Shown in pieces: positions 35,401 to 46,980 of a DNA stretch of 64,000 bases. The stretch comes from a virus. The stretch spans positions 1 to 64,000 of the IMG/VR virus record IMGVR_UViG_3300025853_000057; one strand, given 5' to 3'. Made by a program: the position numbers and the translations under genes. Within the stretch, counting starts at the first letter, position 1. Each line of letters opens with the position of its first letter. The notes under the pieces were generated by a model. It saw only the letters and a program-made list of their open reading frames with translations, ran no database searches and was not told where the DNA came from.

Positions 35401-38400
35401 TCAAATAAGCTAACCATAGCATTGAAGTTCTCAGTAAATACTTCTCCTTGCTTAGTAAGGACAAGATTTCCATTCTCTATAGCAACAAAAGAAGGATTTA
35501 AAAGCTTTACATGGTTAAAATTATCTATACTGAACTTTGAACCATCAGGCATAGTAAACCTGTTAGGGTCAGCTAAACCTCCTATCCTTACCTTCTTACC
35601 TTTGTATGTTACATATACATAAGCTCCTTTACCTGTCTGTCCTGTAACACCTTTAGTAATTTGAATAGCAGGATTTCTATCACTAGAAAATTGCACACCA
35701 CCTTCTGCATAGTCTTCTATAACTACAGTCATAGACTTAGCTATTTCAGCAGGAGTCATATTTCCTAAAGCTTCTTTACCTTCAGCATCTACAAAATCAT
35801 CAGATATAAATACTTCAGATATGCTAGAAGAAGTAAACAGAATAGGAAGACTTTTTTCAGAAGTAGGAGAATTTTCTAAGTTTTTAATTAAAGCTTCTAT
35901 ATCACCAATAAATTTTTGCAGTTTTCCAGACTCTAAATACTCATTAAAAGCTGCTTGGTTTTCAGTACCAGTAAGACCAGCTCTACGCTTTAAAGCTTCT
36001 AACTTTTCTTTAGCATATTTTAACTTAGCTTTAGTCTTACCAATTTTTACATCTAAAGTATCTTCTTTAGTGTAACTAGGAGGCATGCCTTCATTAAACT
36101 CTTTAATCCATGCAGCTACAGCAGGATTTGCTTGTTCCTGCTCTTGACCTAAGTCAGGTAGTTCTTCTTCTTCCTCAGTAGGAGTTTCAGCAGTCATAGA
36201 ACCATCAGGGTCACTAATAGAAGCTTTGTTAAGACGCTTGCCTATAGTATCATATAGTTTCTCTTGAACATTTCTAAGTTTATATTCTTGAGCTACCATA
36301 GGATTTACGCTAATACCAGCAGTAGTCATACCTAAATCAGAAGCTGCTTGCTCTTCTATAGCTGTAAACTTAGCAGCTTCATCTAAAAGCTCTTTAATAC
36401 TATCATTAAAAGCTTCAGCTCCTTTCTTACTAGCTAGTCTATTAACTTCATTAACAAACATTTGCCTTCTAGCAGCAAGCTTTTCTAAGTCTTTTAATTT
36501 TTGCTCTATATCAAATTTATTATCAAAATAATACTTTTCTACTTCTTTCTTTAAGTTAATTACATTATCTACTTCTTCTTTAAAAGCATCAAAGTCCAAG
36601 TAAGATGCTTCTATATCTGCTTTTTTAGTATTAGCTTTTCTAGCTTCATATTCTCTTTCAACTAAAACATCTACCCTAGCTCTTTGTTTTTCTACTTTAG
36701 CAGTAGCTTCTTCTATAGCTTTTTCATTAGGGCTTTTCTTAAGTTGTTCTTTAGTAAGTTTAGCTTCAGCTTCTTGAAGGCTATTTAATTCTTCTTCATA
36801 GGTATTTAACCACCCTTTACTACCTTTTACTGCGTTATTAAAACGCATAGCATCCATTAGACTTCTTTCGTCTATATTTAAGTTTTCAGCTATTTCCTTA
36901 GCTAAAGATGCTTCTCTTTCATCTAAGTTGTCTACAGAAGACATACTATAGGCTAAAGCTCTTCTAATGTCCTCATTAAAAGCAGAACCTACTGTCTTAG
37001 CTTTATTTATATTTTTTCTTATAGACCTTGCTCTTGTAAGCAAGCTTTGTTTTACTTCATCTTTTCTACGAGAAATATCTTCGTCTGACATATTTTCATA
37101 GCCAAACATGCTCATAAAATCTTCATCACTAAGCTCTGAGGTATATTCCTCAATCATAGTTTCAACAGCTTGGTAATCTCCAAGTCTCATTCTAAACTCT
37201 ACTTCAGAGAAGAAGGCTTCATGTTCAGCGTTTTTAGCACTAAACATATCTCCACTCTCTAGAGCTTCACTATATTCTTGATTAGCTTTATGTTGAGAAG
37301 CTACTTTTTCAACTAAGGCTTTTATTCTGTCTTTAGGATTAGAAGCATCAGCTTCTAAAATATATTCATCTCTAAGAGGGTCTAATTTATCTTTACCTAG
37401 AGATTCCCAAATACCTCCTTGCCATCCTAAACCTTTGCCTGTAGAAGAAGGTCCTACAAAACCTGCACCACCAATGATAGCACCAAGAATACCTTCTTTC
37501 CAACCTTCTTTAGAACCATAAGTTTCTGCAAGACCTTTAGCAAAAGATTCTGCTAAATCTACTTGTTCTTGTTTGTTCTCTACATCTAAGTATCCTGCTA
37601 CATAGTCTAAAGCTGTAGCATTGATAGTACCTTGACCCATTTCTTCAAAGATGCCTTCTGCTACAGGTCTTTCTGCTACATTATATACTTTGTTAAAAGC
37701 TTTTCTATAGTTGCTTTGATAATCAGATTTTTTAATATACTCCTGTTTCTTAAGTTCTTCTATAGGAGTGTTAGTCCTTTTAGAAGCTCTAGCTAATTGT
37801 TTGTTAGATAGGTTTTCTGTCTTTGTTAAACCCTTAGCTACTTTATCTTTTTCTTGTTTTAATGCTCTACCTATTTTTCCTGGAAGTTTAGGACCAAATG
37901 TAGTAGGTAGTGTAATCATGTTACCTACACTAACTAAAGCTGAGTTAGCTGCAAATACACCATTAGCTACATTATAGATTTTATCCATAGCTTCAGCTAA
38001 CTCAACTTCTGAAGGCTCTCTACCATTTTCTTTTATAAAGTCTTCAATAAATTGAGTTCTAGCTTCATCTGCATAGTGCCTAGCTTCTACACCAGCTTCA
38101 TAGAATGTACCAGTACCTATCTTCCTTAAACCTCCTAATACCTCGTCTGCTGTATTTAAGTTGCCTAGTGTGTTTAATCTTCTAGTAGCATCTCCTACCT
38201 TAGAAGTTTTAGTGAAAGCTTTTAAAGCTCTAGTGGTTCTACCTAATGCGACAGGAGTAGCCATACCTGCTGTTAGCATTTCTGTAAGTACAGCACCAGC
38301 TACAAAAGACATACCTGATAATACATCATTAGCCCAAAAGTTAGCTGTAAACATTTCTCGTAATAGGCTATAATCTTCAACTTCCTTTCTTACATAGTTA

Positions 38401-38936
38401 GGAAGATACTCATCCATAGCAGCATTAGCATCATCTAAAGCTCTTTGGAATGCATTATCATAAACATTCTTAAAACTTCCTGTAGCTGCCCCATAGACTA
38501 ATCCAGGAATCATAAGTAAACCTCCAGCTACATTAGTTGCTGTTTTTCCTAAAAACTTAATACTCCCATTAGCCCATTGGTCTGCTACAGATTGGTCTTC
38601 TGCAAACAGGTCTTCAATATCTGCACCTATATATGGAGTTTGTCCAGTTTTTTCTACATACTCTCTATACCTTTCAGCAGCTTCACCTGTTAACCTCTTA
38701 GGTTTAAAAGCAGGGTCTGCTGGAGATAATATAGGTTCTTCTCCTGTAGATTCAAAGAAGTCTTGTTCAGGGTAAGCTTCTTCAAATTCTTTAATTCTTT
38801 CATATTGTTTGAATTGTTCCTCCATTGGAGAAACATTAGGAGCATAAGTATTAAAGAAAGCATCATCATTAGTATTACCAGCATTAGGATTATCAATGTA
38901 TTCCCATTCGCCAGTAGCTTCGTTAAATTCCCACAT
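23457..38936 (-). CDS. Giant virion-packaged DNA-dependent RNA polymerase polyprotein (crAss-type)
   Basis: YGVRIPT...SGADFDVD catalytic motif (DFDVD at 28659-28673), DNGKDP; two HExxH motifs (HEAFH, HEFAH); C-terminal VYHGT..F..F ART-like motif; N-terminal hydrophobic helices. Confidence 0.85.
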   Translation of the reverse strand: MWEFNEATGEWEYIDNPNAGNTNDDAFFNTYAPNVSPMEEQFKQYERIKEFEEAYPEQDFFESTGEEPILSPADPAFKPKRLTGEAAERYREYVEKTGQTPYIGADIEDLFAEDQSVADQWANGSIKFLGKTATNVAGGLLMIPGLVYGAATGSFKNVYDNAFQRALDDANAAMDEYLPNYVRKEVEDYSLLREMFTANFWANDVLSGMSFVAGAVLTEMLTAGMATPVALGRTTRALKAFTKTSKVGDATRRLNTLGNLNTADEVLGGLRKIGTGTFYEAGVEARHYADEARTQFIEDFIKENGREPSEVELAEAMDKIYNVANGVFAANSALVSVGNMITLPTTFGPKLPGKIGRALKQEKDKVAKGLTKTENLSNKQLARASKRTNTPIEELKKQEYIKKSDYQSNYRKAFNKVYNVAERPVAEGIFEEMGQGTINATALDYVAGYLDVENKQEQVDLAESFAKGLAETYGSKEGWKEGILGAIIGGAGFVGPSSTGKGLGWQGGIWESLGKDKLDPLRDEYILEADASNPKDRIKALVEKVASQHKANQEYSEALESGDMFSAKNAEHEAFFSEVEFRMRLGDYQAVETMIEEYTSELSDEDFMSMFGYENMSDEDISRRKDEVKQSLLTRARSIRKNINKAKTVGSAFNEDIRRALAYSMSSVDNLDEREASLAKEIAENLNIDERSLMDAMRFNNAVKGSKGWLNTYEEELNSLQEAEAKLTKEQLKKSPNEKAIEEATAKVEKQRARVDVLVEREYEARKANTKKADIEASYLDFDAFKEEVDNVINLKKEVEKYYFDNKFDIEQKLKDLEKLAARRQMFVNEVNRLASKKGAEAFNDSIKELLDEAAKFTAIEEQAASDLGMTTAGISVNPMVAQEYKLRNVQEKLYDTIGKRLNKASISDPDGSMTAETPTEEEEELPDLGQEQEQANPAVAAWIKEFNEGMPPSYTKEDTLDVKIGKTKAKLKYAKEKLEALKRRAGLTGTENQAAFNEYLESGKLQKFIGDIEALIKNLENSPTSEKSLPILFTSSSISEVFISDDFVDAEGKEALGNMTPAEIAKSMTVVIEDYAEGGVQFSSDRNPAIQITKGVTGQTGKGAYVYVTYKGKKVRIGGLADPNRFTMPDGSKFSIDNFNHVKLLNPSFVAIENGNLVLTKQGEVFTENFNAMVSLFDKLTKGEEITPEFIKKTFFVKSRFGYNSLKDELLENRPSLEEYLDNSKKEVSVAYSYKEKGKEVSKSDTIVVSRRADRLDIYVKEGNSWRLLNEEDKAYRAIQTLYENSIKANPNLEGVNSQFALLYPGSTKGTVGMASLGFPSVTAPLEEDGVPEIVDGILKAAEEQVTNKKSRKEGEEIKPVTVKDSSGNNLFLSIKTSAQDKDGNYIKSNSSEAEISVVSYEDNDTVKVQLQLSSPGSKEKAFKAFINLKLSVKDGKLYFFNEEIKSLKTLIEKINGQIKYYHEKNPENQGVLDTAGKVIKIGNILKKIDAVNDENTAENLSQIKLHSAPVFKLTLNARSRTYKKKVEKEESGQDTSKSDRDKAKQAFKEKIKGIPIEQLKDKAQVDMLLQALKQQHGLTDEDIAELRSAIKGRLLLSSGEAVPGGEKPESTATDTKDDVEKAQRQLDNVESKLNPNANHPKFNVGQKHDVGNIYDVRDFKDERKDTTQEGVDVITKIHKPAEVDADGNLTERAEVEVTFFDSYEQAEEFINAQYNKYKAIAEERLAKANAELAPLESTPTQQNIPQDTIGNLQNQIDEGLALGTLVENSPEHIELERRLAELKSKDEGDEAPFSISQTEAKEKIDIKKAEQTLARMLNMRTPENPNGIFSMDDVRNLLNNVRNNGITWGAFYNNVIYLSKKAGVGTEYHEAFHAVFRTLLSPTQINSYYFAARKAYGNPTLQDLNDLRNSSSMFADLTRLELEKLWLEEQMAEAFKKYALEQEQKPKGILGILYHKIKKLLGFVKSNKNDLDILFQDIYSGKFRTAKPYNKLQSFRKPAFALLKREPYYNNQTKSLERGFLNKDQSERIINTLAIKALQLKSEKGSLSKRDILDLIRDMSSNYYSVENFRTEIDALVKSNKPKAVQIVGKIRNISKSLSIPENEKLLTDEIEMRLQVFDINTVEENAQEESFADDAPERAFDVNIAEVGGFVQLSKEMRKFIAFSSQAIDEFGFGELADLSNDKFQMASNPYTIYTAVQRGLQSTHPKDMLSKLKNLARTNSNVAAFYDHLTTNINLQLEDLGFENFDSRDSELQKDIEVLQQSALFSTFASAFALDKAEQLVVLYDKAKKDFKTFKSNTRDVNITQFNEWAKAFINSGRNNMQYREENLELIKNIRSVFTDSENIESEENLSNAIQSIKNAFSDLGINLSEGYIRFSILSNHVNTLEQYISKPETPNEKDFYEGLLEEVYLFSDVKPLTKDDLTGLSSSIAAQNNPFVKNLNESDTKTDRGAIGRLQAIAENNAVFDESVGTTTFQNAKGQDIYSFIQKTYLISETKKWNKRTETAKELLRAIRDKVSDDEGALIAQEMFKYEGTPYPYYIAKKFYQAIKHNPYLNGVEYQVNSDGNTTSTLITEDNEAYSLAVLKQLQTFLMDGLRTTSLSEVEVDGEAEFVEDTYKNSDASSYAELDGGGIDLVKLSMFAESIGNKLRKLFRLPGARGLAKDNRAKERTLAPFITQVNSDKNTQTATNLPVHEFVNRDGELNTLGVEFLFRDILQEYEDLANVQQEIKFILENDGVDNNGNPVFDIEGYHYKLREDGTKDYTKGKGHDFFLYKAALQKYSPELYQQLLADAREGKPLTKERLEPFIQSYAQDLFGQYLETLASPARSLIRKEETTSDEKKTQEEEKSEEAVAEEAETVTVYKNKMLPKFYEKNDGTVNITRLKEYFFNDMLGSMAFGNLIHGNLKMSYKDMVDFIKRMSKTIAAGPPLGTGTTKVAVVRSVEAKDRFDKDSVDAANIKDLDSQDTTDAQNIGTLSWYRRKYLTSLGKKTKAVDEIYNRLEKGYKLTPSEIKTLKDAGALVMPRKIVGTNRWFYDKTSIVTLLRSQTSYVETKEDREQLDYLYDLLFDARRVNDVNRMQELYKQIHAIWKPIPSERLNHDTLNYLESTGTDILAYDSSMKGAKINVGSISGNNEVGFIVDSEGFDVDDEAFKEQVKTDNLKSKIIDPIQALALLFSEQKSTTKVSVFGTTTTLGDLQDAFENLVSLRTEEGFKEMQKIISSNDKPRYTYLLKLFKESLMQTGADSYLIEMVSAMEGAEDLPKYNLNMPSTIDKLESMFLSFVSKNVLKNKAPGHKFTLRTDHGTGVMELDGKIITDKEFRSNPSKYAGKVTTRRLAYRKKDADGKYYTEIKISAQFAEHLNLKKGDELPPEILEMYGVRIPTDDKHSMGYFKVVDFLPMETGNEIIMPYEILKLSGADFDVDAEYVRVVDYFIDSNDKIHWFGQYLKADNVEEAIKQAREEYIREKSQLYDVKENTKEALLKNKKYQEALEALNNLKSELNKLKPSAEEAKQQIAEILSSIDEAFEEGNIEDADVTETSDDNLDTSLKGIKDFSELTALMLEENVARGNLKEIQRVLNQYKSKIQNTKNFIRTVRTEESIKQLDKLGYSASEDAFNQRFSEVISANRSSFEKGNISAINPLTITEINNLLVPVAGAFIYNDTNEDISNEVTSTEAFDKLEKRLREAGVKDNTEVTGIYDPLNKTNASVNNATGTKNIGPVAVFNLIFQRLAKAGVSLSAEWMEAKEVAETFKEYAKGFKLSRNQKDDSILNNVGIRVNNLIGQNLNAMTDNGKDPKASKFNMAYQLLGTSLTQMGLGKGFNEVVLSGMQPAVVQLVNLINADSSPIKEGEYSQGFFKLVAKTLGEYQGKDTEEVALTEDNLIQALLYAQDPTSSTLTEAQYNFIQVNALQTIKLFKEVSDFLRNFTDIIGLAKGAKPTFSENYNVQESIKNLGLRVVLRKDGNPQNLNDYSIEHVEGYAARDYPLDLLDLVKKDKILSTNLKAQTAIINHESPKFFLLEAKPAKDIVEVLKTSLRPNTMAIDDKAKKIRKSLLSFLSMRAYKHQYANKVKGLNLTKLFDPSYLHELYAEVSALDEVGSNEFLGALLPEVIPFKNKATRLDGHSLYKMSLNTRTKNNSDYVQKLMDSFRELYTSENPKARLFAARAFYYLLMKDGGLFKNDSFIRQIAPHYLTNISNSLDEVQDLFAGLSNKTFVRVFGISKGELIQEFVDLYARYQPNGYDLRTTSSKNLFKDYSKDEEFKAFVEELKQDKEAGNITKEQLIQIIKQNSPVFKDDRNGVIRFDLYAGVEVKPSGAFSSNDKMKMGINAQAIKGTGLVSKGSNGKLNYPAYFKIVEFSPEGIPTSRIYRLYAVQKQRSKVSIKDGLPEASDTVTLNKDGNLFNEGTDVNGVAAYYKAVNPILTKEISPFFWTIEDINAGVEALDYIREEKEEQTTTTAEEQQAEATTLSPELQNFLNQLSSVSKAEVKPETKATPTEKTPVEKKEEPSPEITKEYLLKLFDQLPNSDNKNFMKPMFNSFLSDINENKDKIESILKNLGGKNPFQSKSSEKQTINREQLSSLLDKLSAKFGIDWEFDTSIPGLGQFKNGRVLINPDKARLDTPFHEFAHPFVAIVKLQNPLLYKNLTKQVNNSELGKKTLARVQKNYPELSYEEQVEEAIVDLIGQYAADLESVKQEKGLWNAIKTFLRKVSEYIKSLLADSKKAIIPSELNPETTLEDLASMLVVDNPVNLGRLANRTYRSTPKARGTIKPGVQELFDSNPELANQVYEALGFVKGINELKVQDFKTKIGEATQLEEQVNKLKKYVEQFRTAYFVVNIDEDIQSDIFFIKEEAEEALKEYNNRGNLKFELETTVGLTEKEIEIYKDVIDFLAENPDQNPLNEEEYTGAKKLEAYLKYKHEITSKQIRKVLIGNKEKERLTDFITINLELSQAQKIEGESGLPNNLVELELSKITPQQKQQALQLYSQYLDTIFPDSKVKDIVYHGTNAKFDKFDKSFYQSGADYIYFGKLNTPGFKSLSRTITAIINLKNPSTFIDNNINKVNNDDGFIENYSKNFIQSLSEEQFEQGEFLNQYGVEKPEQIHILGSQKDIEGFRGFVNNQLQAPMESTEDRATTLFSTFVNVNDADVLELLNNCN

Positions 38937-38962
38937 ATATTATTACTTAGATAAAAGTAGAA

Positions 38963-38981
38963 TACGAATTTAAACAAAATA
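38963..38981 (-). promoter_or_regulatory. Candidate phage promoter motif TATTTT-N5/6-AATTCGTA upstream of the RNAP gene
   Basis: Similar motif recurs at 61417-61436 in another intergenic gap on the same strand. Confidence 0.35.
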
Positions 38982-38994
38982 TGTTACTTAGCTA

Positions 38995-39366
38995 TCAATA
39001 GTTAAACTCTACATGATAGTGAGGAACATTACCTTTTACTTCATGGTATAAGACTTCAGCACCATATTTAGCTTTCCAAGCTTTACCTTCAGGAGTTAAT
39101 AACCAGTCCCAAAATTTTAAACCTTCGTCATCATCTCTAATATCTATAGCTTTACCAGCTACATGAGGAGGATTTTTAGGTGCAGAAGATGAATCATCTT
39201 CATATAAGGCATCTTGCTCTTCTTGAGTTCTATAGCCACTGGTAACAGTAATACCAAAAGGTATTTCTTCTGTAGGTGACTTTAAATAGTCAGTTATAGA
39301 CTGCTGTACTTCAGCAGTTTTATATTTTACCTTCTGTCTCTTGCCTGAGGTCTCTGCTTTCCCACA
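38995..39366 (-). CDS. Peptidase M15-like (Zn peptidoglycan peptidase) domain, predicted to be expressed by -1 frameshift from the upstream cargo gene
   Basis: 123-codon open frame with no Met: ITVTSGYRTQEEQDALY...PPHVAGKAIDI...PHYHVEF; bounded upstream by TAG just before the GGGAAAG heptamer. Confidence 0.8.
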   Translation of the reverse strand, partial: CGKAETSGKRQKVKYKTAEVQQSITDYLKSPTEEIPFGITVTSGYRTQEEQDALYEDDSSSAPKNPPHVAGKAIDIRDDDEGLKFWDWLLTPEGKAWKAKYGAEVLYHEVKGNVPHYHVEFNY

Positions 39367-41900
39367 CTACTGGAGGAACCTCCTTGTCCTCCAGCTAATA
39401 AAGTTCCTAAATACCCTAGATAAGTTCTAGCATCATCAGCATTTTTAATATTTGTTGGGTCTAAGACTTTACCTTGAGCATTTCTAATACTACTTACCTC
39501 TATTACTTCACCATTAGGGGCAGTTACATTAACTTTAATAGTAGCTTGTGCAGTTCTAGTAAAGTTGTATATATATCCTCTAGTATCTCTAATAGGAACA
39601 GAAATGCTTTCTGTATTTGTAGGGTCTAATGTAAACATAGTATCATAGGCAATATCTAAAGTGCCTAATTCACTTTCATTAAACATTAGATTTGTTCTTA
39701 ATAGATAAGATGCATCTCTTACTCTGGCATCATTATCTTTAGACATCTGTATAATAACTTCCCTAAAAGCAGGAGCTTCTGTATCTATTAAAGTTTCAAA
39801 TGTAGCTGTCTTACCATCTTCATCTGTTACAACAATAAGATTTGTAGCTTGTCCACTAGAGTTAGCATTTATATAAGCAGCAGTTACTTTTGGATTATCT
39901 CCAAGTCCTCTATCTGCAAATATTTTTTCTAATGAGTTGTTTCTTTCATCCTTACCATCTCCACCAGCAGCCTTTTGCAGGTCTACTAATAAAAGATTAG
40001 GGTCGTCATTATATTTTTCTTTTAAGTTACTTAAAAAATTACCTACAGCTCCTTTTTTACCAGAGCTACCAATGTTTATTTCTCTAATTCCTATCCTCTC
40101 ACGTTCAGATTCACTTTGAAGTTTTTCTACATTTTTCGTAAATTTAGATGTAAAACCTACAATATCTGCTAAAGGTTTAGTTAAGGTAAAGGTATTAGTA
40201 CCTGTATAATTGTACTGCTCAGTTACAAATCTCCAAGCTCCTTCCTTGCTATCATATTTTAAAATCCCTAAGTCTTTTAATTGAGATAAACCTTCACTAT
40301 TTTCTACTTGTAAGTTAGAGTATTTCTGATGTAGTAAGTTTCTAGTAGCAAAATCTCTATTCATTAGAGACCTTTTATCAAAACCAGTTTCTTTAGATAC
40401 TAACTCTAAACCACTAAAAGACTTTTTAATAATTTCATCACTTAAACCAGACTGTTTACCAGCTTCTGTAAATATAGTTTCAAGCCGTTCTGCTTTTTCT
40501 GAAGCTTGCTTAAAGGTACTATAATTTGTAAGAATACTATTTACAACATCTAAATCCCCTGTTCCTATATTTGGATTTTGTTTTAAGTCTACTATAGTCT
40601 GAAGCATTTCAGTTTGTAGAGATTCTACTTCATCTCTATTAAAACCAAATTGGGTCTGTAACCTACCGCCTTCTTTAAAATAGTCATAAGGATTAGCCAT
40701 CATTTCTACAAAAGTGTCGGGTAAATTGTAAGCTTGCTGTAATCTTGCAGCTAGTTCAGGATTACTATTTTTTACTTCTTCATACTTTTTAATTAACAAT
40801 TCATCAGCTCTTTCTTCAAAACTTCCTGTAAAAGCTTCTCTAAGTAAAGGAGCATATTCTGGGTTTGTCATAGCGTTACCTACTGCTGTGGATACATAAG
40901 TAAGAAGGTTAGAATAAGACTCTTGTTCAATTTCTTGAGCTACAGTAAGGTTTTTAGAAATATCAACATCCTGAGTAGAAGCTCCAGTACTTACCATCTC
41001 TAAAGAGTAGTTATCATCTTCATCACTTCCAGTACCTCTACTTCCACCTCCAGGTACATTAGTAGCTTTTCCAGGAATATCTTCTTCATTTCTATAGAAG
41101 CCTTTAGATGCTACACCTGTAACCAGATTTTTAATATCTTCAAAAGAGTTTAAACCTAAAAATTCTTTTATATAACGATACTGGTCTTTATCTCCTTGTA
41201 GTACTCTATTAGTATATTCATCAATTGCTTCTTGAGTAAAAGTATTATCTAAATTTAAGTTAGTTATTTTTTTCCCATCAGGTGTTAACCAGATTAATTT
41301 ACCTTTCTCATCGTAGCTATAACTACCTTCTCCATAGATTTTTTTTATAGAAGGTTTTAAGTAACTAAGTAATTCGGTTGAAACAGTTTCTTCTACTTTA
41401 TCTTCAATAGGAGTTTTAATATCTGCTTCAGAAATTTCAGAAGGGTCTTTCCATCCCCATTGACCTGTAACAGGGTCTTGCTTCATTAAGTCAGCAAAGT
41501 AAAGAGATGCTGCGTTAGGCTTTCCTAAGTAAGGAGCTACATTAGCTTCATATAATTTATAATGCTTTCTAATCCTATTAAGCTCAGGGTCAGTCATAAA
41601 TTCTCTATTCAAAGCTCCTAGCTGACCTGTAACTCTACCATAAGAGCCTTTATTTTTTTCAAGCTCTTCTTCTAAATTAGCTATAGAAGTGCTAAACTTA
41701 TCTCTATAAGCTTGAGCCATACCTGTTTCTTCATGCCAAGGAGCAGCCTCTATAGCAAACTCTGATGTTCCTAATTGAGTTCTAGCAGTATCTAAACCCT
41801 TCTGCTTAGTTTCCAGGTTTTGCTGCATGAACTCCAAAGGCATATCTATGAATTGAGATTCATAGGGAGTATCTACTGGTCGTATAAATCTAACTGCCAT
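39327..41900 (-). CDS. Virion cargo/ejection protein (857 aa; 968 aa with frameshift extension)
   Basis: RF..P..TPYESQFIDMPLE start; lies between cargo protein 1 and RNAP; Gly/Ser linker at the C-terminus. Confidence 0.65.
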   Translation of the reverse strand: MAVRFIRPVDTPYESQFIDMPLEFMQQNLETKQKGLDTARTQLGTSEFAIEAAPWHEETGMAQAYRDKFSTSIANLEEELEKNKGSYGRVTGQLGALNREFMTDPELNRIRKHYKLYEANVAPYLGKPNAASLYFADLMKQDPVTGQWGWKDPSEISEADIKTPIEDKVEETVSTELLSYLKPSIKKIYGEGSYSYDEKGKLIWLTPDGKKITNLNLDNTFTQEAIDEYTNRVLQGDKDQYRYIKEFLGLNSFEDIKNLVTGVASKGFYRNEEDIPGKATNVPGGGSRGTGSDEDDNYSLEMVSTGASTQDVDISKNLTVAQEIEQESYSNLLTYVSTAVGNAMTNPEYAPLLREAFTGSFEERADELLIKKYEEVKNSNPELAARLQQAYNLPDTFVEMMANPYDYFKEGGRLQTQFGFNRDEVESLQTEMLQTIVDLKQNPNIGTGDLDVVNSILTNYSTFKQASEKAERLETIFTEAGKQSGLSDEIIKKSFSGLELVSKETGFDKRSLMNRDFATRNLLHQKYSNLQVENSEGLSQLKDLGILKYDSKEGAWRFVTEQYNYTGTNTFTLTKPLADIVGFTSKFTKNVEKLQSESERERIGIREINIGSSGKKGAVGNFLSNLKEKYNDDPNLLLVDLQKAAGGDGKDERNNSLEKIFADRGLGDNPKVTAAYINANSSGQATNLIVVTDEDGKTATFETLIDTEAPAFREVIIQMSKDNDARVRDASYLLRTNLMFNESELGTLDIAYDTMFTLDPTNTESISVPIRDTRGYIYNFTRTAQATIKVNVTAPNGEVIEVSSIRNAQGKVLDPTNIKNADDARTYLGYLGTLLAGGQGGSSSSVGKQRPQARDRR
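39357..39363 (-). other. -1 ribosomal frameshift slippery heptamer G GGA AAG
   Basis: Read GTG GGA AAG in the cargo frame; same heptamer as lambda G/GT; links the 857-aa ORF to the M15 frame. Confidence 0.75.
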
Positions 41901-41904
41901 TTTA

Positions 41905-44900
41905 CTATTTTATTTCTGTGTAAGTACCATCAGGATTTTTCTTATATCTTCTACCATCATCTGTTTCAATAATATTCTCATAAGTAGCAAGTCCTGAAGG
42001 AGCTAATTTAGGAATTAATTGCCCATTTACCACATCATATCCTATTATGCTAAAATCACCTGTTTTCATGCTATTAACAATCATATCTTGCATTCGTTTA
42101 GCTCCCATGTCTTTAGAAAATCCTTGGACATTACTACCTATACCTTCTGCTCCTTTCATACCTAGCTGCCATCTGTTAGCTATAGATTGGTCTTTAAGTA
42201 AAGCATTCTTTTCAGCTTGTGCAGCAGCTAATTGAGCTTCTTGGTTAGCAATGCCAATGTTACTAGTATCTATACCATATCTAGTTTTAGCTAAAGCCTC
42301 TCCTAAGTTCATAGCCATACTAGGACTAGCTACTGCCATATTAGATAAATAAGAACCTTGTGTAGGTGCACCTCTTCTAAAGCCCTCTCTAGTATTAGCT
42401 AAAGCTTGGTTACCAGCAGCTTGTTGTAAAGCTACAGGAGTATAATCATACCTTTGAAGTTTAGGAGCAGCAGTATAAGTAGGGTCTGGAGCAAAAGCAG
42501 CAGCAGCTATATTACTTAGAGGCCCTACCATAGAACCTGCTGCACCAGCAATGTAAGTATCCATAGGAGATTTATAATCTTTAGGGCCTTTTAAAGTAGG
42601 CTTACGTTTTTGTGGTTTTTCAAAAGAAAGAGCTTTAAATTCTTCTAAAGAAGGGCCTTTAACAGTATAATCTAAAGAAGTAGGTATTTTTATAGGCTGC
42701 GAAGTAGGTATTTTTATAGGCTGCATTAATGAGCTAGATTGATTACTATTTTTACTAAAGTACTGGGGAGCAAAAGCTTTAACTTCATTTACTCTCTTAG
42801 TCCACTCAGGTAAATTAGTATTAGCTCCTGTTGTATTCCTATAACTTCTAATTTTTTCAGCAGCAAATGGGTCATTTAAAGCATCACCCATTGCCATAAC
42901 ATCAGCACCATATTTTCCCCAAGCTTCGTCTACTTTAGCAGGGTCTAATTTCCCTTGTGAATACATTTGAAGTTTTTGTTCAGGAGTTAACTTCCCGGCT
43001 GCTACCATCATAGATGCTCTAGGGTCTTCACTATTAAAAGCAAAATCAAAAGCCATAGCTTGTTGTGAATCAGGCATTTCATAAAGACCATATTTATTAA
43101 AATATTGATTTATACCAGCATTAATAGCTTGATTTCTACCTTCTTCAGTGTTAGCATATTGTGTGGCTCCAGGTTGTGTAAATCCATAATTAGAGTAACC
43201 TAATCTAGTTTCTCGGTCTAAAGTATTACCTACAATATCATATATTCTATCATAGTCATCAGGAGTTGATACTTTTTCTGTAGAATACATATTTTCAGGA
43301 ACTAAATTTCCTTGATTTTGCTGAGGAAACAACTTATCACCCATTTGTTTAATTACTCTGCCTCCATATCTCATCATACCAGGGGGTTGAGCTTGTGGAG
43401 GCATTTGCTGTTGCATAGCAGGTTGTTGTTGTCCTTGCATTTGTTGGGCTACCATTTCTACTATTTGAACAGCTTGCTGTTGTGGTACTCCCATTTCAAT
43501 TAACTTTCCTACAACTTGCTCAGGTGCTACATTTTGTTGCAGCATTTGTGCTACTTGCTGAATAATCTGCTGTGCAGCTTCTTCTTGACCTCCACCTTGT
43601 TGTGGCATTTGTTGTGGTTGCATCATGTCTCCTCCCATTTGGTAGTAACCTCCATCTTCTTTTGCAAAATTTCTAGCAAAGTTAGCTTTTTTTCTCATAG
43701 CTGGGGAGTACTTACCTTCAGGTGCATTTAAAATAGTACTAGCTGCTTCTTGTACACCCATACCCATTTTAGAAGCTTGGGCTTTAAAAGTACCTCTTTT
43801 AGAAGGGTCTATATGAATACCACCTTGAGCATACATCATAGGGCCACCATAGTTATACATAGCAGGTTCCATATCCATATAACCACCATCTTCCCAAGTA
43901 GCTCTAGCATAAGCTCTAAAGTATGGATTCTTAGCTAAGTTCTTTTTATGTCTAGCGTAGAAAGCTTTCTTACCATATTTAGATTTACCTCTTTCTCCTA
44001 GCTTAGGGTCACCAAAGTATTTCTTAGTTCCATCAGGACCAGTAACTACGTGAGTTTTTCCTTTTCTGTCATTAGACCTTCTAACAGTATAACCACCTTT
44101 TCCATACTCCATAGTATCATCATAATCCATATATCCACCTACTTCCATATTAGATTTAATTTTTGCCTGTACATATTCAGGCAAAGCTCTAAAGCCAGGA
44201 TTATCAAAACTACCACCTTCAGCATAGTAACCACCATAAGCTTTTTCAGCAGCTTTAATCTTACGTTCTTGCTCAAGCATTTGCTTAGTAGGTTTTTTAC
44301 CACTACCTCTATTAGCTCTGATGTTATCCCATAAGCCTCTTCTAGAATAAGAGCCATCAGCTCTTTTAATCATTTGACCACCTCTTGCCATTTTTTCTTC
44401 TACAAAAGGTGCTTGTGTTTGTATAGGCTGGTCTACTAACATTTGTTGAGAACCATCAGCACCTGTAACCATTATAGGGTCATTATTATTTGTAGGAACT
44501 ACTTGTGTAGGTCCACTGCCAGGAAAAGCAATACTATTAGCATCAGGATACATATTATATCCAGCTTGTTGTTCTTCAGGTGAAGCTGCTACAACATTCT
44601 TTTGCTCTTCTAATTGCCTGTCTATATTATGGGCTTTAATAAGCTTCTTCATCTCACTATCTATGAAATTTAAGGTAAGCTTATCATTAGGACGAAGTTT
44701 ATCTCCTCCCTGTTTTTTAATAGCTTTACTTATGTCTGCATAAGATTTACCAGCATACTTTTCAGAAATACCTGCTTCTCTTAAAGCTGTTTTAGAGGCT
44801 TTAATTTTTTCAGACATTACATAGTTTTCTGGAGTGTAAATAGTTTCAGGACCTTCTACTTCTACATCTGGGCCTTGACCATTATTAGGTAAAGTAACAC

Positions 44901-46980
44901 CACCTTCTGCATGTGAAGGGCCTCCTATTTCTGTTAAACCTAAGTTTTGATTTAACATTTGCCCTCCTTGTTGATATCTAAATCTGCCTCCTCTAGAAGC
45001 CATAAATGTTTTCATATCTTTAAAATTACCCATTAATCCTGGAATTTGTTGTATAGCTTGTCCAACAGCATCTCCTTCAGGGCTTCCTGAGAAACCTGAA
45101 ACTGCTTTACCTGCTCCTTTTACAGATTGAGTTACTGCTTGCTCAGGGGATGCTATACCTAAAGCTGCACCACCTATAGCACCTACTGCATTACCTACAC
45201 CTGCATAACCTTGTTGTTGTTGTGCAGCTTCTCCTGTAGTTCCTGCTGCTCCTTGTAGAGCTTTAAAGCCCATATCTGTAAGCTCATCAGTAGCTCCCTT
45301 TGTAGCAGCATCTAATAAACCTTCACCTACACCATATAAACCTGCCATAACATCTTCAAACACAGAAGGCTCATCTACAGCACCTCTTCTCATTCTATCT
45401 CTGTTTAAGAATGAAGCACTAGTAGGTGTAGTTAAAGAACCACCCCTTTCTTTTTTATTTTTTCCTTTAAGATAGTTTGATTTTACCGCATATTCAGGAG
45501 TTGTTCCATATTTATTATAAAAATCTCTATCTGTATATATTATTTCTTTACCATCTTCAATTACTGACCACCTAGTTCCATCTTTTGTCCCTATCATTGT
45601 GGGTGTTGGAACAGTAAATTGTTGTGGTTCATAATCACTAGAAGTAGGTTTTTGATTAGTAGAACTTTGATAAGTTTCCCAAGCAGCTTGTGAGTTAGGA
45701 CCCCATATACCATCTATTTTACCTGTATATAATCCAGCTTCTTTTAATAGTTCTTGTTTTTTAGCATTTTCATATTCTTTAGTACTTTTTATAATTACTT
45801 TTTGTGCTGGTTTTTTAAAGAAAGGGTATGTTGCTCTATTTCCTTTATTTTCATAAGACTCCCATGTTGGGTTATTTGTATTTGATTGTGGATACTCTAC
45901 ATTTATATGTCTTAAATGTCCAGATTTATTAACAGCATCAATAACTGCATTTTTATAAATAAGACTTTTATTATGCAAATCTAAACTATCTGCATAAGCT
46001 TGATACCTTTCCATTCCTGCTGGGTCATTAGGGTCTACATACATAGTAGGTCTGCCACCTCTTTGAAGTTTTATTCTACCACCTAATTCTTTAAAACTAT
46101 CATATCCTTCTTGTATAGATTTATCTTTAGCTTTTTGTACACTAGTTCTAAAGCTTTTCCTATTTCCTGGAACTTCTACATTTTTATGGCCTTGTAACCA
46201 TAAATCTTCTAATGATAGCCTACCCTCAGCATAATCTTTAAGTACTGCTCTTGACTGAGATAGATTTATTAAAAATAAAACATATTGCTGTCTTGGAGAA
46301 AGTTCAGTTGCAGATTTAGCTTTTAGTATCTCAGGGTCAGGTTTAAGCTTTAATTTATTAGCTACTATTTTATATCTATTTTGAGCAGTCTCTAAAGAAT
46401 CGTTTTCAAACTGAAATATACCTCTTCCTGGACCACCTCCATGTTGTAGTTGTCCAGGGTCCATTGTACCAGCAGATTCATGGTAACCAATAGTATCAGC
46501 CGTTCTTCCCCAGAAATCTCTAGTACCACCTCTAGTATCTACTAAAAAATCTAATGAGTTTTCTAAATCTAAAACGTCAGATTTTTTCTTTTCTTCATAT
46601 TGAGCTTTTTGTAATTCACCACCTGTTTGTTTTTTATCTACATATTGTAATTGGTTATCTCCAAAGTAACCTTCAACATTTGGAACTACATCAAAACGTC
46701 TATTGTTTTCTGGATTTAGTGCATAACCTTGCATGTACTCCATCCAAGCTGTAGGGTGTTGTTTAGATTTTAACCACATACCATTAGTACTATCTACTGA
46801 TGGCCAATGACCTGTTTCATCTGGGGTATAACCTAACTCTAATGCTTTCTGCATGTTGTAAGTACCACCACCCTGCATAACAACAGGATTAAGACCTAGA
46901 GCTTTCCTAAAAGACATCTCTCCAGGATAATCAGATTCCTTTTTCCTTCTAACAGGTTTTTTAATTCTTTTCTTAGCCAT
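41905..46980 (-). CDS. Multi-module virion cargo protein with lysozyme-like, PG-binding and GH108-like domains and xxGG-delimited modules
   Basis: IGYHESAG...GRGIFQFE; LKEAGLYTGKIDGIWGPNS (PG_binding_1-like); GPSHAEGGV..VEVEG.E; NYGFT...FDFAFNS; Gly/Ala-rich segments; follows the muzzle gene. Confidence 0.65.
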   Translation of the reverse strand: MAKKRIKKPVRRKKESDYPGEMSFRKALGLNPVVMQGGGTYNMQKALELGYTPDETGHWPSVDSTNGMWLKSKQHPTAWMEYMQGYALNPENNRRFDVVPNVEGYFGDNQLQYVDKKQTGGELQKAQYEEKKKSDVLDLENSLDFLVDTRGGTRDFWGRTADTIGYHESAGTMDPGQLQHGGGPGRGIFQFENDSLETAQNRYKIVANKLKLKPDPEILKAKSATELSPRQQYVLFLINLSQSRAVLKDYAEGRLSLEDLWLQGHKNVEVPGNRKSFRTSVQKAKDKSIQEGYDSFKELGGRIKLQRGGRPTMYVDPNDPAGMERYQAYADSLDLHNKSLIYKNAVIDAVNKSGHLRHINVEYPQSNTNNPTWESYENKGNRATYPFFKKPAQKVIIKSTKEYENAKKQELLKEAGLYTGKIDGIWGPNSQAAWETYQSSTNQKPTSSDYEPQQFTVPTPTMIGTKDGTRWSVIEDGKEIIYTDRDFYNKYGTTPEYAVKSNYLKGKNKKERGGSLTTPTSASFLNRDRMRRGAVDEPSVFEDVMAGLYGVGEGLLDAATKGATDELTDMGFKALQGAAGTTGEAAQQQQGYAGVGNAVGAIGGAALGIASPEQAVTQSVKGAGKAVSGFSGSPEGDAVGQAIQQIPGLMGNFKDMKTFMASRGGRFRYQQGGQMLNQNLGLTEIGGPSHAEGGVTLPNNGQGPDVEVEGPETIYTPENYVMSEKIKASKTALREAGISEKYAGKSYADISKAIKKQGGDKLRPNDKLTLNFIDSEMKKLIKAHNIDRQLEEQKNVVAASPEEQQAGYNMYPDANSIAFPGSGPTQVVPTNNNDPIMVTGADGSQQMLVDQPIQTQAPFVEEKMARGGQMIKRADGSYSRRGLWDNIRANRGSGKKPTKQMLEQERKIKAAEKAYGGYYAEGGSFDNPGFRALPEYVQAKIKSNMEVGGYMDYDDTMEYGKGGYTVRRSNDRKGKTHVVTGPDGTKKYFGDPKLGERGKSKYGKKAFYARHKKNLAKNPYFRAYARATWEDGGYMDMEPAMYNYGGPMMYAQGGIHIDPSKRGTFKAQASKMGMGVQEAASTILNAPEGKYSPAMRKKANFARNFAKEDGGYYQMGGDMMQPQQMPQQGGGQEEAAQQIIQQVAQMLQQNVAPEQVVGKLIEMGVPQQQAVQIVEMVAQQMQGQQQPAMQQQMPPQAQPPGMMRYGGRVIKQMGDKLFPQQNQGNLVPENMYSTEKVSTPDDYDRIYDIVGNTLDRETRLGYSNYGFTQPGATQYANTEEGRNQAINAGINQYFNKYGLYEMPDSQQAMAFDFAFNSEDPRASMMVAAGKLTPEQKLQMYSQGKLDPAKVDEAWGKYGADVMAMGDALNDPFAAEKIRSYRNTTGANTNLPEWTKRVNEVKAFAPQYFSKNSNQSSSLMQPIKIPTSQPIKIPTSLDYTVKGPSLEEFKALSFEKPQKRKPTLKGPKDYKSPMDTYIAGAAGSMVGPLSNIAAAAFAPDPTYTAAPKLQRYDYTPVALQQAAGNQALANTREGFRRGAPTQGSYLSNMAVASPSMAMNLGEALAKTRYGIDTSNIGIANQEAQLAAAQAEKNALLKDQSIANRWQLGMKGAEGIGSNVQGFSKDMGAKRMQDMIVNSMKTGDFSIIGYDVVNGQLIPKLAPSGLATYENIIETDDGRRYKKNPDGTYTEIK
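42677..42724 (-). repeat. Perfect 24-nt tandem duplication (QPIKIPTS x2)
   Basis: gaagtaggtatttttataggctgc x2 on + strand. Confidence 0.9.

What the first reader, a model, noticed from the sequence alone, without database searches (positions are those of the whole stretch)
38995..39369. Hidden -1 programmed frameshift adds an M15 peptidoglycan peptidase to an ejection protein
Seen: the 390-nt gap before the RNAP gene holds a 123-codon frame with M15 motifs (SGYRT.EEQ..LY, H..G.AID, H.HVE) and no Met. It is closed upstream by TAG (39369-39367) one codon before G GGA AAG (39363-39357). That heptamer sits in the correct phase near the end of the 857-aa cargo gene, right after a GGQGGSSSS linker. 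A 7-bp hairpin (ACTGCTG-AAGTA-CAGCAGT) lies about 40 nt downstream. Established: GGGAAAG is the lambda G/GT -1 slippery site. Inference: a minority of cargo subunits (968 aa vs 857 aa) carry a cell-wall-cutting domain, setting hydrolase stoichiometry in the ejected channel. Such frameshifts are best known in tail chaperones and capsid proteins.
Basis: partly seen in the sequence, partly recalled or inferred. Interest (0 to 1): 0.85.

Follow-up and report, generated by a model that had tools for sequence, protein, structure and literature searches.

The report
Frameshift adds wall peptidase to cargo
In this uncultured crAss-like phage, a cell-wall-cutting enzyme domain with no start codon sits one base out of frame behind a classic slippery sequence at the end of a virion cargo-type gene, and diverged relatives keep the same site, so some ribosomes very probably slip back one base and make a longer, enzyme-carrying form.

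Summary
On the minus strand an 857-aa gene (41900-39327) ends 33 nt after an in-phase G GGA AAG (39363-39357). The -1 frame opens one codon before that heptamer. It runs 122 codons with no ATG, GTG or TTG and encodes an M15/LAS-type zinc peptidase domain.

Five diverged lineages of related phage contigs keep GGGAAAG in the same phase, 27-42 nt before the 0-frame stop. Their cargo proteins are only about 28-33% identical to this one. Their -1 extensions differ: M15 alone, a lysozyme-like domain, or M15 plus about 550 further residues. None of 22 protein homologues is fused in frame. The -1 frame is under purifying selection.

A programmed -1 frameshift giving a 968-aa product is the best explanation (about 0.85). 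It has not been shown experimentally.

Synteny with crAss001 (muzzle, cargo 1, this gene, gp47-like giant) puts the gene at the cargo-2 position.

A conserved GGAGGT 8-14 nt upstream is a better candidate stimulator.

This scan has already noted the same arrangement on at least four other genomes. I found no paper describing it. It is a new variant of a known kind.

The parts
39327..41900 (-). 0-frame gene, 857 aa (95.7 kDa); sits at the cargo-protein-2 (crAss001 gp46) position
   Evidence: ORF. 22 homologues of 815-916 aa, none fused in frame. Synteny. N-terminal BLASTP against the gp46 N-terminus gives E 0.003.
39378..39383 (-). GGAGGT, a Shine-Dalgarno-like element 14 nt upstream of the heptamer; candidate 5' frameshift stimulator
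   Evidence: Coordinates. GGAGGT lies 8-14 nt upstream of the heptamer in all five lineages. SD-like stimulators act 9-14 nt 5' of -1 sites (PMC5009743). It also encodes Gly-Gly, so a nucleotide-level role is an inference.
39357..39363 (-). Slippery heptamer G GGA AAG in X XXY YYZ phase
   Evidence: It is the only in-phase GGGAAAG in 16,409 codons. It is conserved in phase in lineages A-E. It is highly shift-prone in E. coli (PMC5009743).
39327..39329 (-). 0-frame stop TAA, 9 codons after the heptamer
   Evidence: Relatives also stop 27-42 nt after the heptamer.
38995..39363 (-). -1 frame extension: 122 codons from GGG plus TGA; contains no ATG, GTG or TTG; encodes a linker and an M15/LAS zinc peptidase domain
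   Evidence: Pfam VanY E 6e-4 (below cut-off) and PHROG 465 endolysin 5.5e-6. A profile search hits PDB M15C peptidases at E 0.003. AF2 model pLDDT 81.7. LAS-fold matches with Z 6.8. dN/dS 0.2-0.5.
39013..39165 (-). Predicted zinc-binding and catalytic residues: H68 (39165-39163), D75 (39144-39142), H116 (39021-39019), H118 (39015-39013)
   Evidence: These columns are invariant in the alignment of 7 domains. Codons verified.
39300..39318 (-).
   Evidence: It lies 38 nt after the heptamer. The fold of the 80 nt downstream has z -1.67, and no equivalent exists in other lineages.
41905..46980 (-). Upstream neighbour, 1691 aa, cargo protein 1 (crAss001 gp45) counterpart; context only
   Evidence: Pfam crAss_CARG1 scores 35.8 bits against a cut-off of 27.
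23457..38936 (-). Downstream neighbour, 5159 aa; its N-terminal part is homologous to the crAss001 gp47 RNAP-associated cargo protein; context only
   Evidence: BLASTP E 2e-22 with colinear segments.

Best explanation
A programmed -1 ribosomal frameshift. Ribosomes translating the 857-aa cargo-type gene reach G GGA AAG. A fraction of them slip back one base (GGA to GGG in the P site, AAG to AAA in the A site), miss the TAA nine codons later, and read 120 more codons. This yields a 968-aa protein in which a roughly 20-residue linker joins the cargo protein to a C-terminal M15/LAS zinc peptidase domain. The short form would be the bulk product. The long form is carried into the virion by the shared cargo body. 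It would cut peptidoglycan peptide links locally when the cargo proteins are ejected through the envelope at infection. Shown here: the sequence anatomy, conservation of the site, purifying selection on the -1 frame, the peptidase fold and metal-binding motif, and synteny with crassvirus cargo genes. Inferred: that slippage occurs and at what rate, that the conserved upstream GGAGGT stimulates it, that the product is packaged, and that it is muralytic.
For: (1) The heptamer is in phase, and the -1 ORF opens one codon before it and has no ATG, GTG or TTG.
(2) GGGAAAG is in phase 27-42 nt before the 0-frame stop in 11 related contigs from five lineages. Their cargo proteins are 28-33% identical to the window's, or alignable only at the N-terminus.
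(3) The codon before GGA AAG varies (GTG, ATG, GGG, GCG, CCG) but always ends in G. G-ending Val, Ala and Pro codons are 1-5% in this genome. AAG is kept although AAA is 71% of Lys codons.
(4) The -1 extensions differ between lineages. Lineages A, B and C carry M15 alone. Lineage D carries a lysozyme-like, lytic-transglycosylase-like domain (Z 9.3 to phiKZ gp144). Lineage E carries M15 plus about 550 residues (660-695 codons). The first ATG lies at codon 153 or 172, or is absent.
(5) All 17 aligned homologues end in GK plus a 9-12-residue tail. None of the 22 homologues is fused in frame.
(6) dN/dS of the -1 ORF is 0.2-0.5 with saturated dS.
(7) G_GGA_AAG is a documented highly shift-prone site, used in lambda G/GT and in podophage capsid genes (PMC5009743; PMC7881722).
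(8) M15/LAS identity: invariant H-x6-D and H-x-H, PDB profile hits to L-Ala-D-Glu peptidases, and structural matches to LysECD7, ChiX, VanXY and LdcB.
(9) Synteny: ring protein, muzzle (gp44-like), crAss_CARG1 protein, this gene, gp47-like giant.
Against: There is no direct evidence of the trans-frame protein. No conserved downstream RNA structure was found. The window's own downstream fold is not significant. Gene callers gave three relatives a 100-102-aa ORF starting at a Met. In two of them that Met aligns with the window's ATA Ile, and in the third it lies one column earlier. Independent initiation therefore cannot be excluded in some relatives. Lineage E has a TTG at codon 11. The Gly-Lys at the site and the upstream Gly-Gly are also conserved as amino acids, so part of the nucleotide conservation could reflect protein constraint. 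The junction and M15 region are far more conserved than the cargo body (window against L001 and L004). The lineages may therefore share this module by recombination rather than by independent retention. The host tRNA-Lys repertoire is unknown.
Confidence: 0.85

Rival explanations
1. The M15 ORF is an independent small gene, for example the phage endolysin. It would be translated from a non-canonical start (such as the ATA at 'ITDYLKSP') or by termination-reinitiation after the cargo gene. The slippery heptamer would then be incidental to a conserved Gly-Lys motif.
For: Three relatives have called ORFs of 100-102 aa. Two begin at a Met aligned with the window's ATA Ile, and the third begins one column earlier. 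No other recognisable endolysin family (Amidase_2, Phage_lysozyme, SLT, M15_4) was found in the 76.5-kb record.
Against: The window and lineage B have no ATG, GTG or TTG anywhere in the -1 ORF. The only element conserved across all lineages is the in-phase heptamer, including its synonymous positions. In lineages D and E the first ATG lies after or late within the domain. The -1 frame stays open back to the heptamer in every lineage. The record is only 77% complete, so a missing endolysin proves little. The column in question is hydrophobic (I, V, L or M), so a start-like codon there is expected by chance.
Confidence: 0.08
2. The layout is an assembly or sequencing indel, or a decaying gene. 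The true gene would be a single 968-aa ORF, or the M15 frame would be a pseudogene remnant.
For: The site contains short homopolymers (GGG, AAA). Reads could not be checked.
Against: The same two-frame layout appears in 11 independently assembled contigs from different metagenomes. All 17 aligned homologues have the short 0-frame tail. No in-frame fusion occurs among 22 homologues. dN/dS is below 1 and the metal ligands are invariant.
Confidence: 0.02
3. The frame change occurs during transcription (RNA polymerase slippage on GGGAAAG) rather than on the ribosome.
For: Transcriptional slippage produces similar two-product genes in some bacteria and phages (PMC5009743).
Against: The runs are only 3-5 G and 3 A, well below the long homopolymers used for productive transcriptional slippage. 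The site fits the ribosomal tandem-slippage rule exactly, including conservation of phase.
Confidence: 0.03

Closest known systems
Phage lambda G/GT tail-assembly-chaperone -1 frameshift (G GGA AAG)
   Same: It uses the identical slippery heptamer. [quoted passage not shown] The -1 ORF has no start of its own. The expected result is a minor long form and a major short form sharing the N-terminal body. No strong conserved 3' structure is needed (PMC5009743).
   Different: G and GT are chaperones that are not in the virion, and the T part binds the major tail protein. Here the gene is a podovirus-type (crassvirus) cargo-position gene, and the extension is an enzyme domain that differs between lineages.
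T7 10A/10B and phiEco32-like/kuravirus capsid frameshifts (GGGAAAG in phage Privateer)
   Same: A -1 frameshift near the end of a virion protein gene of a podophage gives a minor extended structural protein. The Privateer long form was seen in virions by mass spectrometry (PMC7881722).
   Different: Those extend the major capsid protein with a non-enzymatic tail or decoration. This one extends an internal cargo-type protein with a peptidoglycan hydrolase.
Ejected or internal virion proteins with built-in muralytic domains, e.g. T7 gp16 lytic transglycosylase (from my own knowledge, not tested here)
   Same: A cell-wall-degrading domain is physically part of a protein stored in the virion and ejected ahead of the DNA, to get through the peptidoglycan.
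   Different: In T7 the domain is in frame, so every copy carries it. Here it would be added only to the frameshifted fraction. It is an M15 peptidase in this lineage and lysozyme-like in lineage D.
crAss001 cargo proteins gp45 (C1) and gp46 (C2) (PMC10172136)
   Same: The gene order matches: muzzle gp44, C1, C2, gp47. The size class is similar. The N-termini of the 857-aa protein and gp46 are weakly similar (E 0.003).
   Different: Profile comparison finds no significant homology to gp45 or gp46. No frameshift or hydrolase domain is annotated or described for the crAss001 cargo genes.
E. coli dnaX -1 frameshift with a 5' Shine-Dalgarno-like stimulator
   Same: An SD-like sequence lies 9-14 nt upstream of a -1 site that ends in AAG (PMC5009743). 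Here GGAGGT lies 8-14 nt upstream in all five lineages.
   Different: dnaX also has a strong 3' stem-loop, and its frameshift product is shorter, not longer. The genes of this phage have no SD before their start codons, so the role of the anti-SD in its host is uncertain.

Membership tests
Programmed -1 ribosomal frameshift site (tandem-slippage X XXY YYZ, lambda G/GT type) | Slippery heptamer X XXY YYZ in the 0-frame phase | tested here: met
   G GGA AAG at 39363-39357; the 0-frame codons are GTG GGA AAG.
Programmed -1 ribosomal frameshift site (tandem-slippage X XXY YYZ, lambda G/GT type) | A -1 ORF overlaps the site, runs well past the 0-frame stop and has no initiation codon of its own | tested here: met
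   122 codons from GGG with no ATG, GTG or TTG; the 0-frame stop comes 9 codons after the site.
Programmed -1 ribosomal frameshift site (tandem-slippage X XXY YYZ, lambda G/GT type) | Site and phase are conserved in diverged relatives, including synonymous positions | tested here: met
   Five lineages and 11 contigs. The preceding codon always ends in G, and GGA and AAG are always used.
Programmed -1 ribosomal frameshift site (tandem-slippage X XXY YYZ, lambda G/GT type) | The trans-frame region is under protein-coding selection | tested here: met
   dN/dS is 0.2-0.5 between lineages and the catalytic residues are invariant.
Programmed -1 ribosomal frameshift site (tandem-slippage X XXY YYZ, lambda G/GT type) | A stimulatory element: a 3' structure at a 5-9 nt spacer, or a 5' SD-like sequence | tested here: inconclusive
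   No conserved 3' structure was found. The window fold has z -1.67, while L004 has a strong hairpin 5 nt downstream (z -4.3). GGAGGT lies 8-14 nt upstream in all lineages, but it also encodes Gly-Gly.
Programmed -1 ribosomal frameshift site (tandem-slippage X XXY YYZ, lambda G/GT type) | The trans-frame protein is detected and depends on the heptamer | not testable with these tools
   This needs proteomics or a reporter assay.
LAS-fold zinc peptidase, MEROPS M15-like (VanY / L-Ala-D-Glu peptidase) | Metal-binding motif H-x6-D plus a C-terminal His (H-x-H) | tested here: met
   H68, D75, H116 and H118 are invariant in 7 aligned domains, and xxHxxGxAxD is present.
LAS-fold zinc peptidase, MEROPS M15-like (VanY / L-Ala-D-Glu peptidase) | Hedgehog/DD-peptidase (LAS) fold | tested here: met
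   The AF2 model has pLDDT 81.7. Foldseek's top hit is ChiX (prob 0.99, E 0.01). VIA gives Z 6.8 to LysECD7 (104 aligned, rmsd 3.5), and 49 of the 50 top rows score Z 4.7-6.8 and all 50 are LAS-fold proteins. The Z values are moderate.
LAS-fold zinc peptidase, MEROPS M15-like (VanY / L-Ala-D-Glu peptidase) | Significant match to a curated M15 family model | tested here: inconclusive
   Pfam VanY scores 20 bits against a cut-off of 25 (E 6e-4), and Peptidase_M15_2 scores 16 bits. PHROG 465 endolysin gives E 5.5e-6. A profile search hits PDB M15C peptidases at E 0.003-0.017. I file it at superfamily level only; the subfamily is unresolved.
LAS-fold zinc peptidase, MEROPS M15-like (VanY / L-Ala-D-Glu peptidase) | Muralytic activity | not testable with these tools
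   This needs a zymogram or muropeptide assay.
Crassvirus cargo protein 2 (crAss001 gp46-like) | Gene position between the cargo-1 gene and the gp47-like RNAP-associated gene, downstream of the muzzle gene | tested here: met
   The 1586-aa protein matches gp44 (E 3e-14). The 1691-aa protein has crAss_CARG1. The N-terminal part of the 5159-aa protein matches gp47 (E 2e-22). The crAss001 gene order comes and PMC10172136.
Crassvirus cargo protein 2 (crAss001 gp46-like) | Sequence homology to gp46 | tested here: inconclusive
   hhalign probability is below 1%. BLASTP of N-terminus against N-terminus gives E 0.003, 27% identity over 71 aa at matching positions.
Crassvirus cargo protein 2 (crAss001 gp46-like) | Presence in the virion and ejection into the host | not testable with these tools
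   This needs virion proteomics or cryo-EM.
Stand-alone endolysin gene | Own canonical start codon | tested here: not met
   There is no ATG, GTG or TTG in the 123-codon frame.

The most novel reading that the evidence does not exclude
The slippery heptamer plus the upstream SD-like GGAGGT forms a portable recoding junction. Environmental crassviruses would use it to hang interchangeable 'warheads' on a constant cargo-protein chassis in sub-stoichiometric amounts. The warheads seen here are an M15 peptidase, a lysozyme-like domain, or either of these plus a 550-aa module of unknown function. The junction and warhead would move between phages by recombination: the window and L001 are 78% identical over the cargo protein but about 99% identical at the junction. 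The system would exploit the anti-SD of elongating ribosomes in hosts that do not use SD for initiation.
Probability: 0.35. Interest if true: 0.75.

Novelty: new variant of a known kind. Interest (0 to 1): 0.62.

Why it matters
Crassviruses are among the most abundant phages known, yet how their large protein cargo crosses the host envelope is unresolved. The crAss001 structural atlas names no cell-wall-degrading component. A conserved recoding event that equips a cargo-position protein with a wall hydrolase would supply that missing activity. It would add a new functional class (enzyme delivery) to phage frameshifting, which is best known from tail chaperones and capsid proteins. It would also show that standard gene calling misses these domains in metagenomic phage genomes: here it gives no gene at all, and in relatives it gives truncated 100-aa ORFs. 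The site is compact and directly testable.

Tried and rejected
- Searches of the GenBank phage collection with the M15 domain, the 857-aa protein and 4 kb of DNA found nothing.
- A single-sequence scan of IMG/VR found nothing. The alignment-based scans did find loci.
- A search for longer proteins containing the M15 domain found none.
- P0043 (1061 aa) carries the lysozyme-like domain in frame at its C-terminus, and its N-terminus resembles the cargo N-terminus. The similarity is not significant, so I do not use it as fusion evidence.
- Profile comparison with crAss001 gp45 and gp46 was not significant.
- The more distant homologues L006, L007 and L016 (988-1024 aa) have no heptamer and no hydrolase domain.
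- The 550-aa C-terminal module of lineage E has no family or Atlas match.
- A scan of IMG/VR with the lysozyme-like domain found only its own contig.
- The window holds no tRNA genes.
- Literature searches for crAss-like phages plus frameshifting found no description of this event.
Full report
**Observation.** All coordinates below are on the minus strand.
- The 857-aa ORF (41900-39327) ends ...LAGGQGGSSSSVGK-QRPQARDRR-TAA.
- The 0-frame codons GTG GGA AAG put G GGA AAG (39363-39357) in X XXY YYZ phase.
- In the -1 frame, TAG (39369-39367) is followed by TGT, then GGG AAA GCA GAG... This frame stays open for 123 codons to TGA (38997-38995).
- The frame has no ATG, GTG or TTG.
- It fills the 390-nt gap before the ATG (38936) of a 5159-aa ORF.
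- A -1 slip would give a 968-aa protein (about 108 kDa against 95.7 kDa) with junction ...SVGK-AETSGK.
- The 7-bp hairpin exists at 39318-39300, 38 nt after the heptamer.

**Is it chance?** Among 16,409 codons of the window's 21 large ORFs, an in-phase GGGAAAG occurs once, at this site. There are 100 in-phase XXXYYYZ heptamers of any kind, mostly A/T-only. The site is written in disfavoured codons. GTG is 5% of Val codons, GGA 36% of Gly and AAG 29% of Lys, so about 0.5% of Val-Gly-Lys triplets would read this way.

**Comparative evidence.**
- The 857-aa protein has 22 homologues of 815-916 aa in the metagenomic protein collection. None is long enough to be an in-frame fusion.
- In an alignment of 17 of them (30-79% identity), the C-terminus is GGQGG-x(2-4)-GK followed by a 9-12-residue tail. 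Both Gly847 and Lys848 are invariant.
- DNA of relatives came from IMG/VR and JGI metagenomes.
- Eleven contigs in five lineages carry GGGAAAG in phase, 27-42 nt before the 0-frame stop, with a long -1 ORF.

| Lineage | Contigs | -1 extension | Start codons in the -1 ORF |
|---|---|---|---|
| A | window, L001 | M15 domain, 122 codons | none |
| B | L004, L014 (cargo 28% identical) | M15 domain, 119 codons | none |
| C | L005 (cargo alignable only over its first 158 residues) | M15 domain, 142 codons | only a TTG at codon 44 |
| D | L002, L012 | a different domain, 185 codons | first ATG at codon 153 |
| E | L003, L009, L010, L011, L013 | M15 plus about 550 further residues, 660-695 codons | TTG at codon 11; first ATG at codon 172, after the M15 domain |

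- The amino acid before Gly-Lys varies (V, M, G, A, P), but its codon always ends in G (GTG, ATG, GGG, GCG, CCG). G-ending Val, Ala and Pro codons are 1-5% in this genome. That is nucleotide-level conservation of the heptamer, not just of a peptide motif.
- More distant homologues (L006, L007, L016, L017; 988-1024 aa) have neither the heptamer nor a hydrolase domain.
- The -1 ORF evolves under purifying selection: dN/dS is 0.2-0.5 with saturated dS.

**What the extension is.**
- Single-sequence family scans are weak but consistent: Pfam VanY E 6e-4 (below cut-off) and PHROG 465 'endolysin' E 5.5e-6.
- In an alignment of seven such domains, the columns H68, G71, A73, D75 (the xxHxxGxAxD motif) and H116-Y-H118 are invariant.
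- Its profile hits solved L-alanyl-D-glutamate (M15C) peptidases at E 0.003-0.017.
- An AlphaFold2 model (pLDDT 81.7) matches only LAS-fold proteins. Foldseek's top hit is ChiX (prob 0.99). VIA gives Z 6.8 to LysECD7, 6.5 to ChiX and 6.4 to VanXYg and the Streptomyces DD-peptidase, followed by hedgehog N-domains, LdcB and Ply500.

I therefore call it an M15-like LAS zinc peptidase domain and leave the subfamily open.

The lineage-D extension folds (pLDDT 82) like lytic transglycosylases and lysozymes. VIA gives Z 9.3 to phiKZ gp144 over 143 residues, followed by MltF, MltE, MltC and g-type and T4 lysozymes. Foldseek E-values are not significant, and the lineage-D sequence has Gln where distant relatives have the ES-type Glu. 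Two unrelated wall-hydrolase-type folds at the same recoding junction argue that the junction exists to attach such domains.

**What the upstream gene is.** Family and pairwise searches place the window in a crassvirus virion module.
- The 314-aa protein matches Pfam CrAss_Ring_1 (E 4e-52).
- The 1586-aa protein is homologous to the crAss001 muzzle protein gp44 (E 3e-14, colinear segments).
- The 1691-aa protein carries the Pfam crAss_CARG1 domain above cut-off.
- The N-terminal part of the 5159-aa protein is homologous to gp47 (E 2e-22).

In crAss001 the order is gp44 muzzle, gp45 cargo 1, gp46 cargo 2, gp47 (PMC10172136). The 857-aa gene thus occupies the cargo-2 position. Direct homology to gp46 is only hinted at: N-terminus against N-terminus gives E 0.003, and profile comparisons are not significant. 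'Cargo/ejection protein' is therefore an inference from synteny.

**Mechanism.** G_GGA_AAG is documented as highly shift-prone in E. coli and is the lambda G/GT site (PMC5009743). The same heptamer makes the minor capsid protein of podophage Privateer, which was seen in virions (PMC7881722).

No 3' structure is conserved:
- The window's downstream 80 nt fold no better than shuffles (z -1.67).
- L004 has a strong hairpin 5 nt after the site (z -4.3).
- L005 has a 6-bp stem at +7.
- L002 and L003 have nothing.

All five lineages do share GGAGGT 8-14 nt upstream of the heptamer (39383-39378 in the window). This holds even in L004 and L005, where the GGQGG peptide motif is reduced to GG. SD-like sequences 9-14 nt upstream stimulate bacterial -1 frameshifting, as in dnaX (PMC5009743). 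The phage's own genes have no SD before their starts, as expected for Bacteroidota-type hosts. GGAGG occurs only about once per kb on the coding strand. Because the element also encodes Gly-Gly, its role is an inference that needs a synonymous-mutant test.

**Rivals.**
- Independent initiation. Three relatives have called 100-102-aa ORFs. Two start at a Met aligned with the window's ATA Ile, and the third starts one column earlier. No other endolysin family was detected in the 76.5-kb, 77%-complete record. A free M15 protein, at least in some relatives, cannot be excluded. However, that column is simply hydrophobic, lineages A and B have no canonical start at all, and only the heptamer is universally conserved.
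- Assembly error or pseudogene. This is excluded for practical purposes by 11 independent assemblies, the uniform short tails of 17 homologues and the purifying selection.
- Transcriptional slippage. This is unlikely on runs this short.

**Caveat on independence.** The junction-plus-M15 region is far more conserved than the cargo body. The window and L001 are about 99% identical there against 78% overall. The window and L004 are 63% identical there against 28% overall. The module may therefore spread by recombination. Lineages D and E still show the same heptamer joined to unrelated downstream sequence.

**Comparison and novelty.** In mechanism this is a lambda-G/GT-type or T7-10A/10B-type -1 frameshift. 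In function it resembles ejected proteins with built-in muralytic domains such as T7 gp16 (from my own knowledge). The new feature is the combination: recoding that adds a wall-hydrolase domain, swappable between lineages, to a crassvirus cargo-position protein. Full-text searches found no description of frameshifting in crAss-like phages, and the crAss001 atlas mentions no peptidoglycan hydrolase.

Earlier notes of this same scan report the same arrangement in at least four other genomes. They are AI notes, not independent evidence, but they fit the breadth seen here.

**Verdict.** This is a new variant of a known kind. Confidence that a -1 frameshift makes the long form is about 0.85. Interest is 0.62.

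Noticed in passing
window 23457-38936 (-): This is a single 5159-aa ORF. Its first ~2000 residues are colinear with crAss001 gp47, including the HEAFH motif (E 2e-22). It has no sequence match in the PDB. It looks like a fusion of several crassvirus RNAP-associated cargo proteins into one giant protein.
   Followed up: partly
window 41905-46980 (-): This 1691-aa protein carries the Pfam crAss_CARG1 domain (residues 690-794, 35.8 bits). It is about twice the size of crAss001 gp45, and the rest has no family match.
   Followed up: partly
L001 5450-6100 against window 38800-39600: The window and IMG/VR contig L001 are mosaic. The cargo proteins are 78% identical overall. The last ~150 nt of the gene, the whole M15 frame and the start of the next gene are nearly identical, with one substitution seen. 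This suggests recent recombination of this block.
   Followed up: partly
L009 4586-6568; also L003, L011, L013: In lineage E the -1 ORF runs 660-695 codons: the M15 domain, a Pro/Ala/Lys-rich linker, then a module of about 350-400 aa with no Pfam, PHROG or Atlas match. Protein P0035 (621 aa) joins that same module to the lysozyme-like domain instead. The extension parts are therefore shuffled.
   Followed up: partly
L004 5521-5600: A strong long hairpin starts 5 nt after the heptamer (-25.8 kcal/mol, z -4.3; 0 of 200 shuffles fold as well). This is a canonical position for a -1 stimulator, but it is seen only in this lineage.
   Followed up: no
whole record G000 (76,564 bp; window = 1-64000): No Amidase_2, Phage_lysozyme, SLT or Peptidase_M15_4 match occurs anywhere in the record. 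The frameshift-frame M15 domain is the only recognisable wall hydrolase. The record is 77% complete, so an endolysin may lie in the missing part.
   Followed up: partly
window, upstream of 28 ORF starts: No Shine-Dalgarno motifs precede the start codons; the leaders are A/T-rich. This fits a Bacteroidota-type host and makes the internal GGAGGT before the slippery site stand out.
   Followed up: partly
P0043 (1061 aa, metagenomic protein): This protein carries the lysozyme-like domain in frame at residues 927-1044, with an intact Glu-containing motif. Its N-terminus (MARFYQVPISPVY...) resembles the cargo family's N-terminus, but the similarity is not significant. It may be an in-frame, 'unrecoded' relative.
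   Followed up: partly
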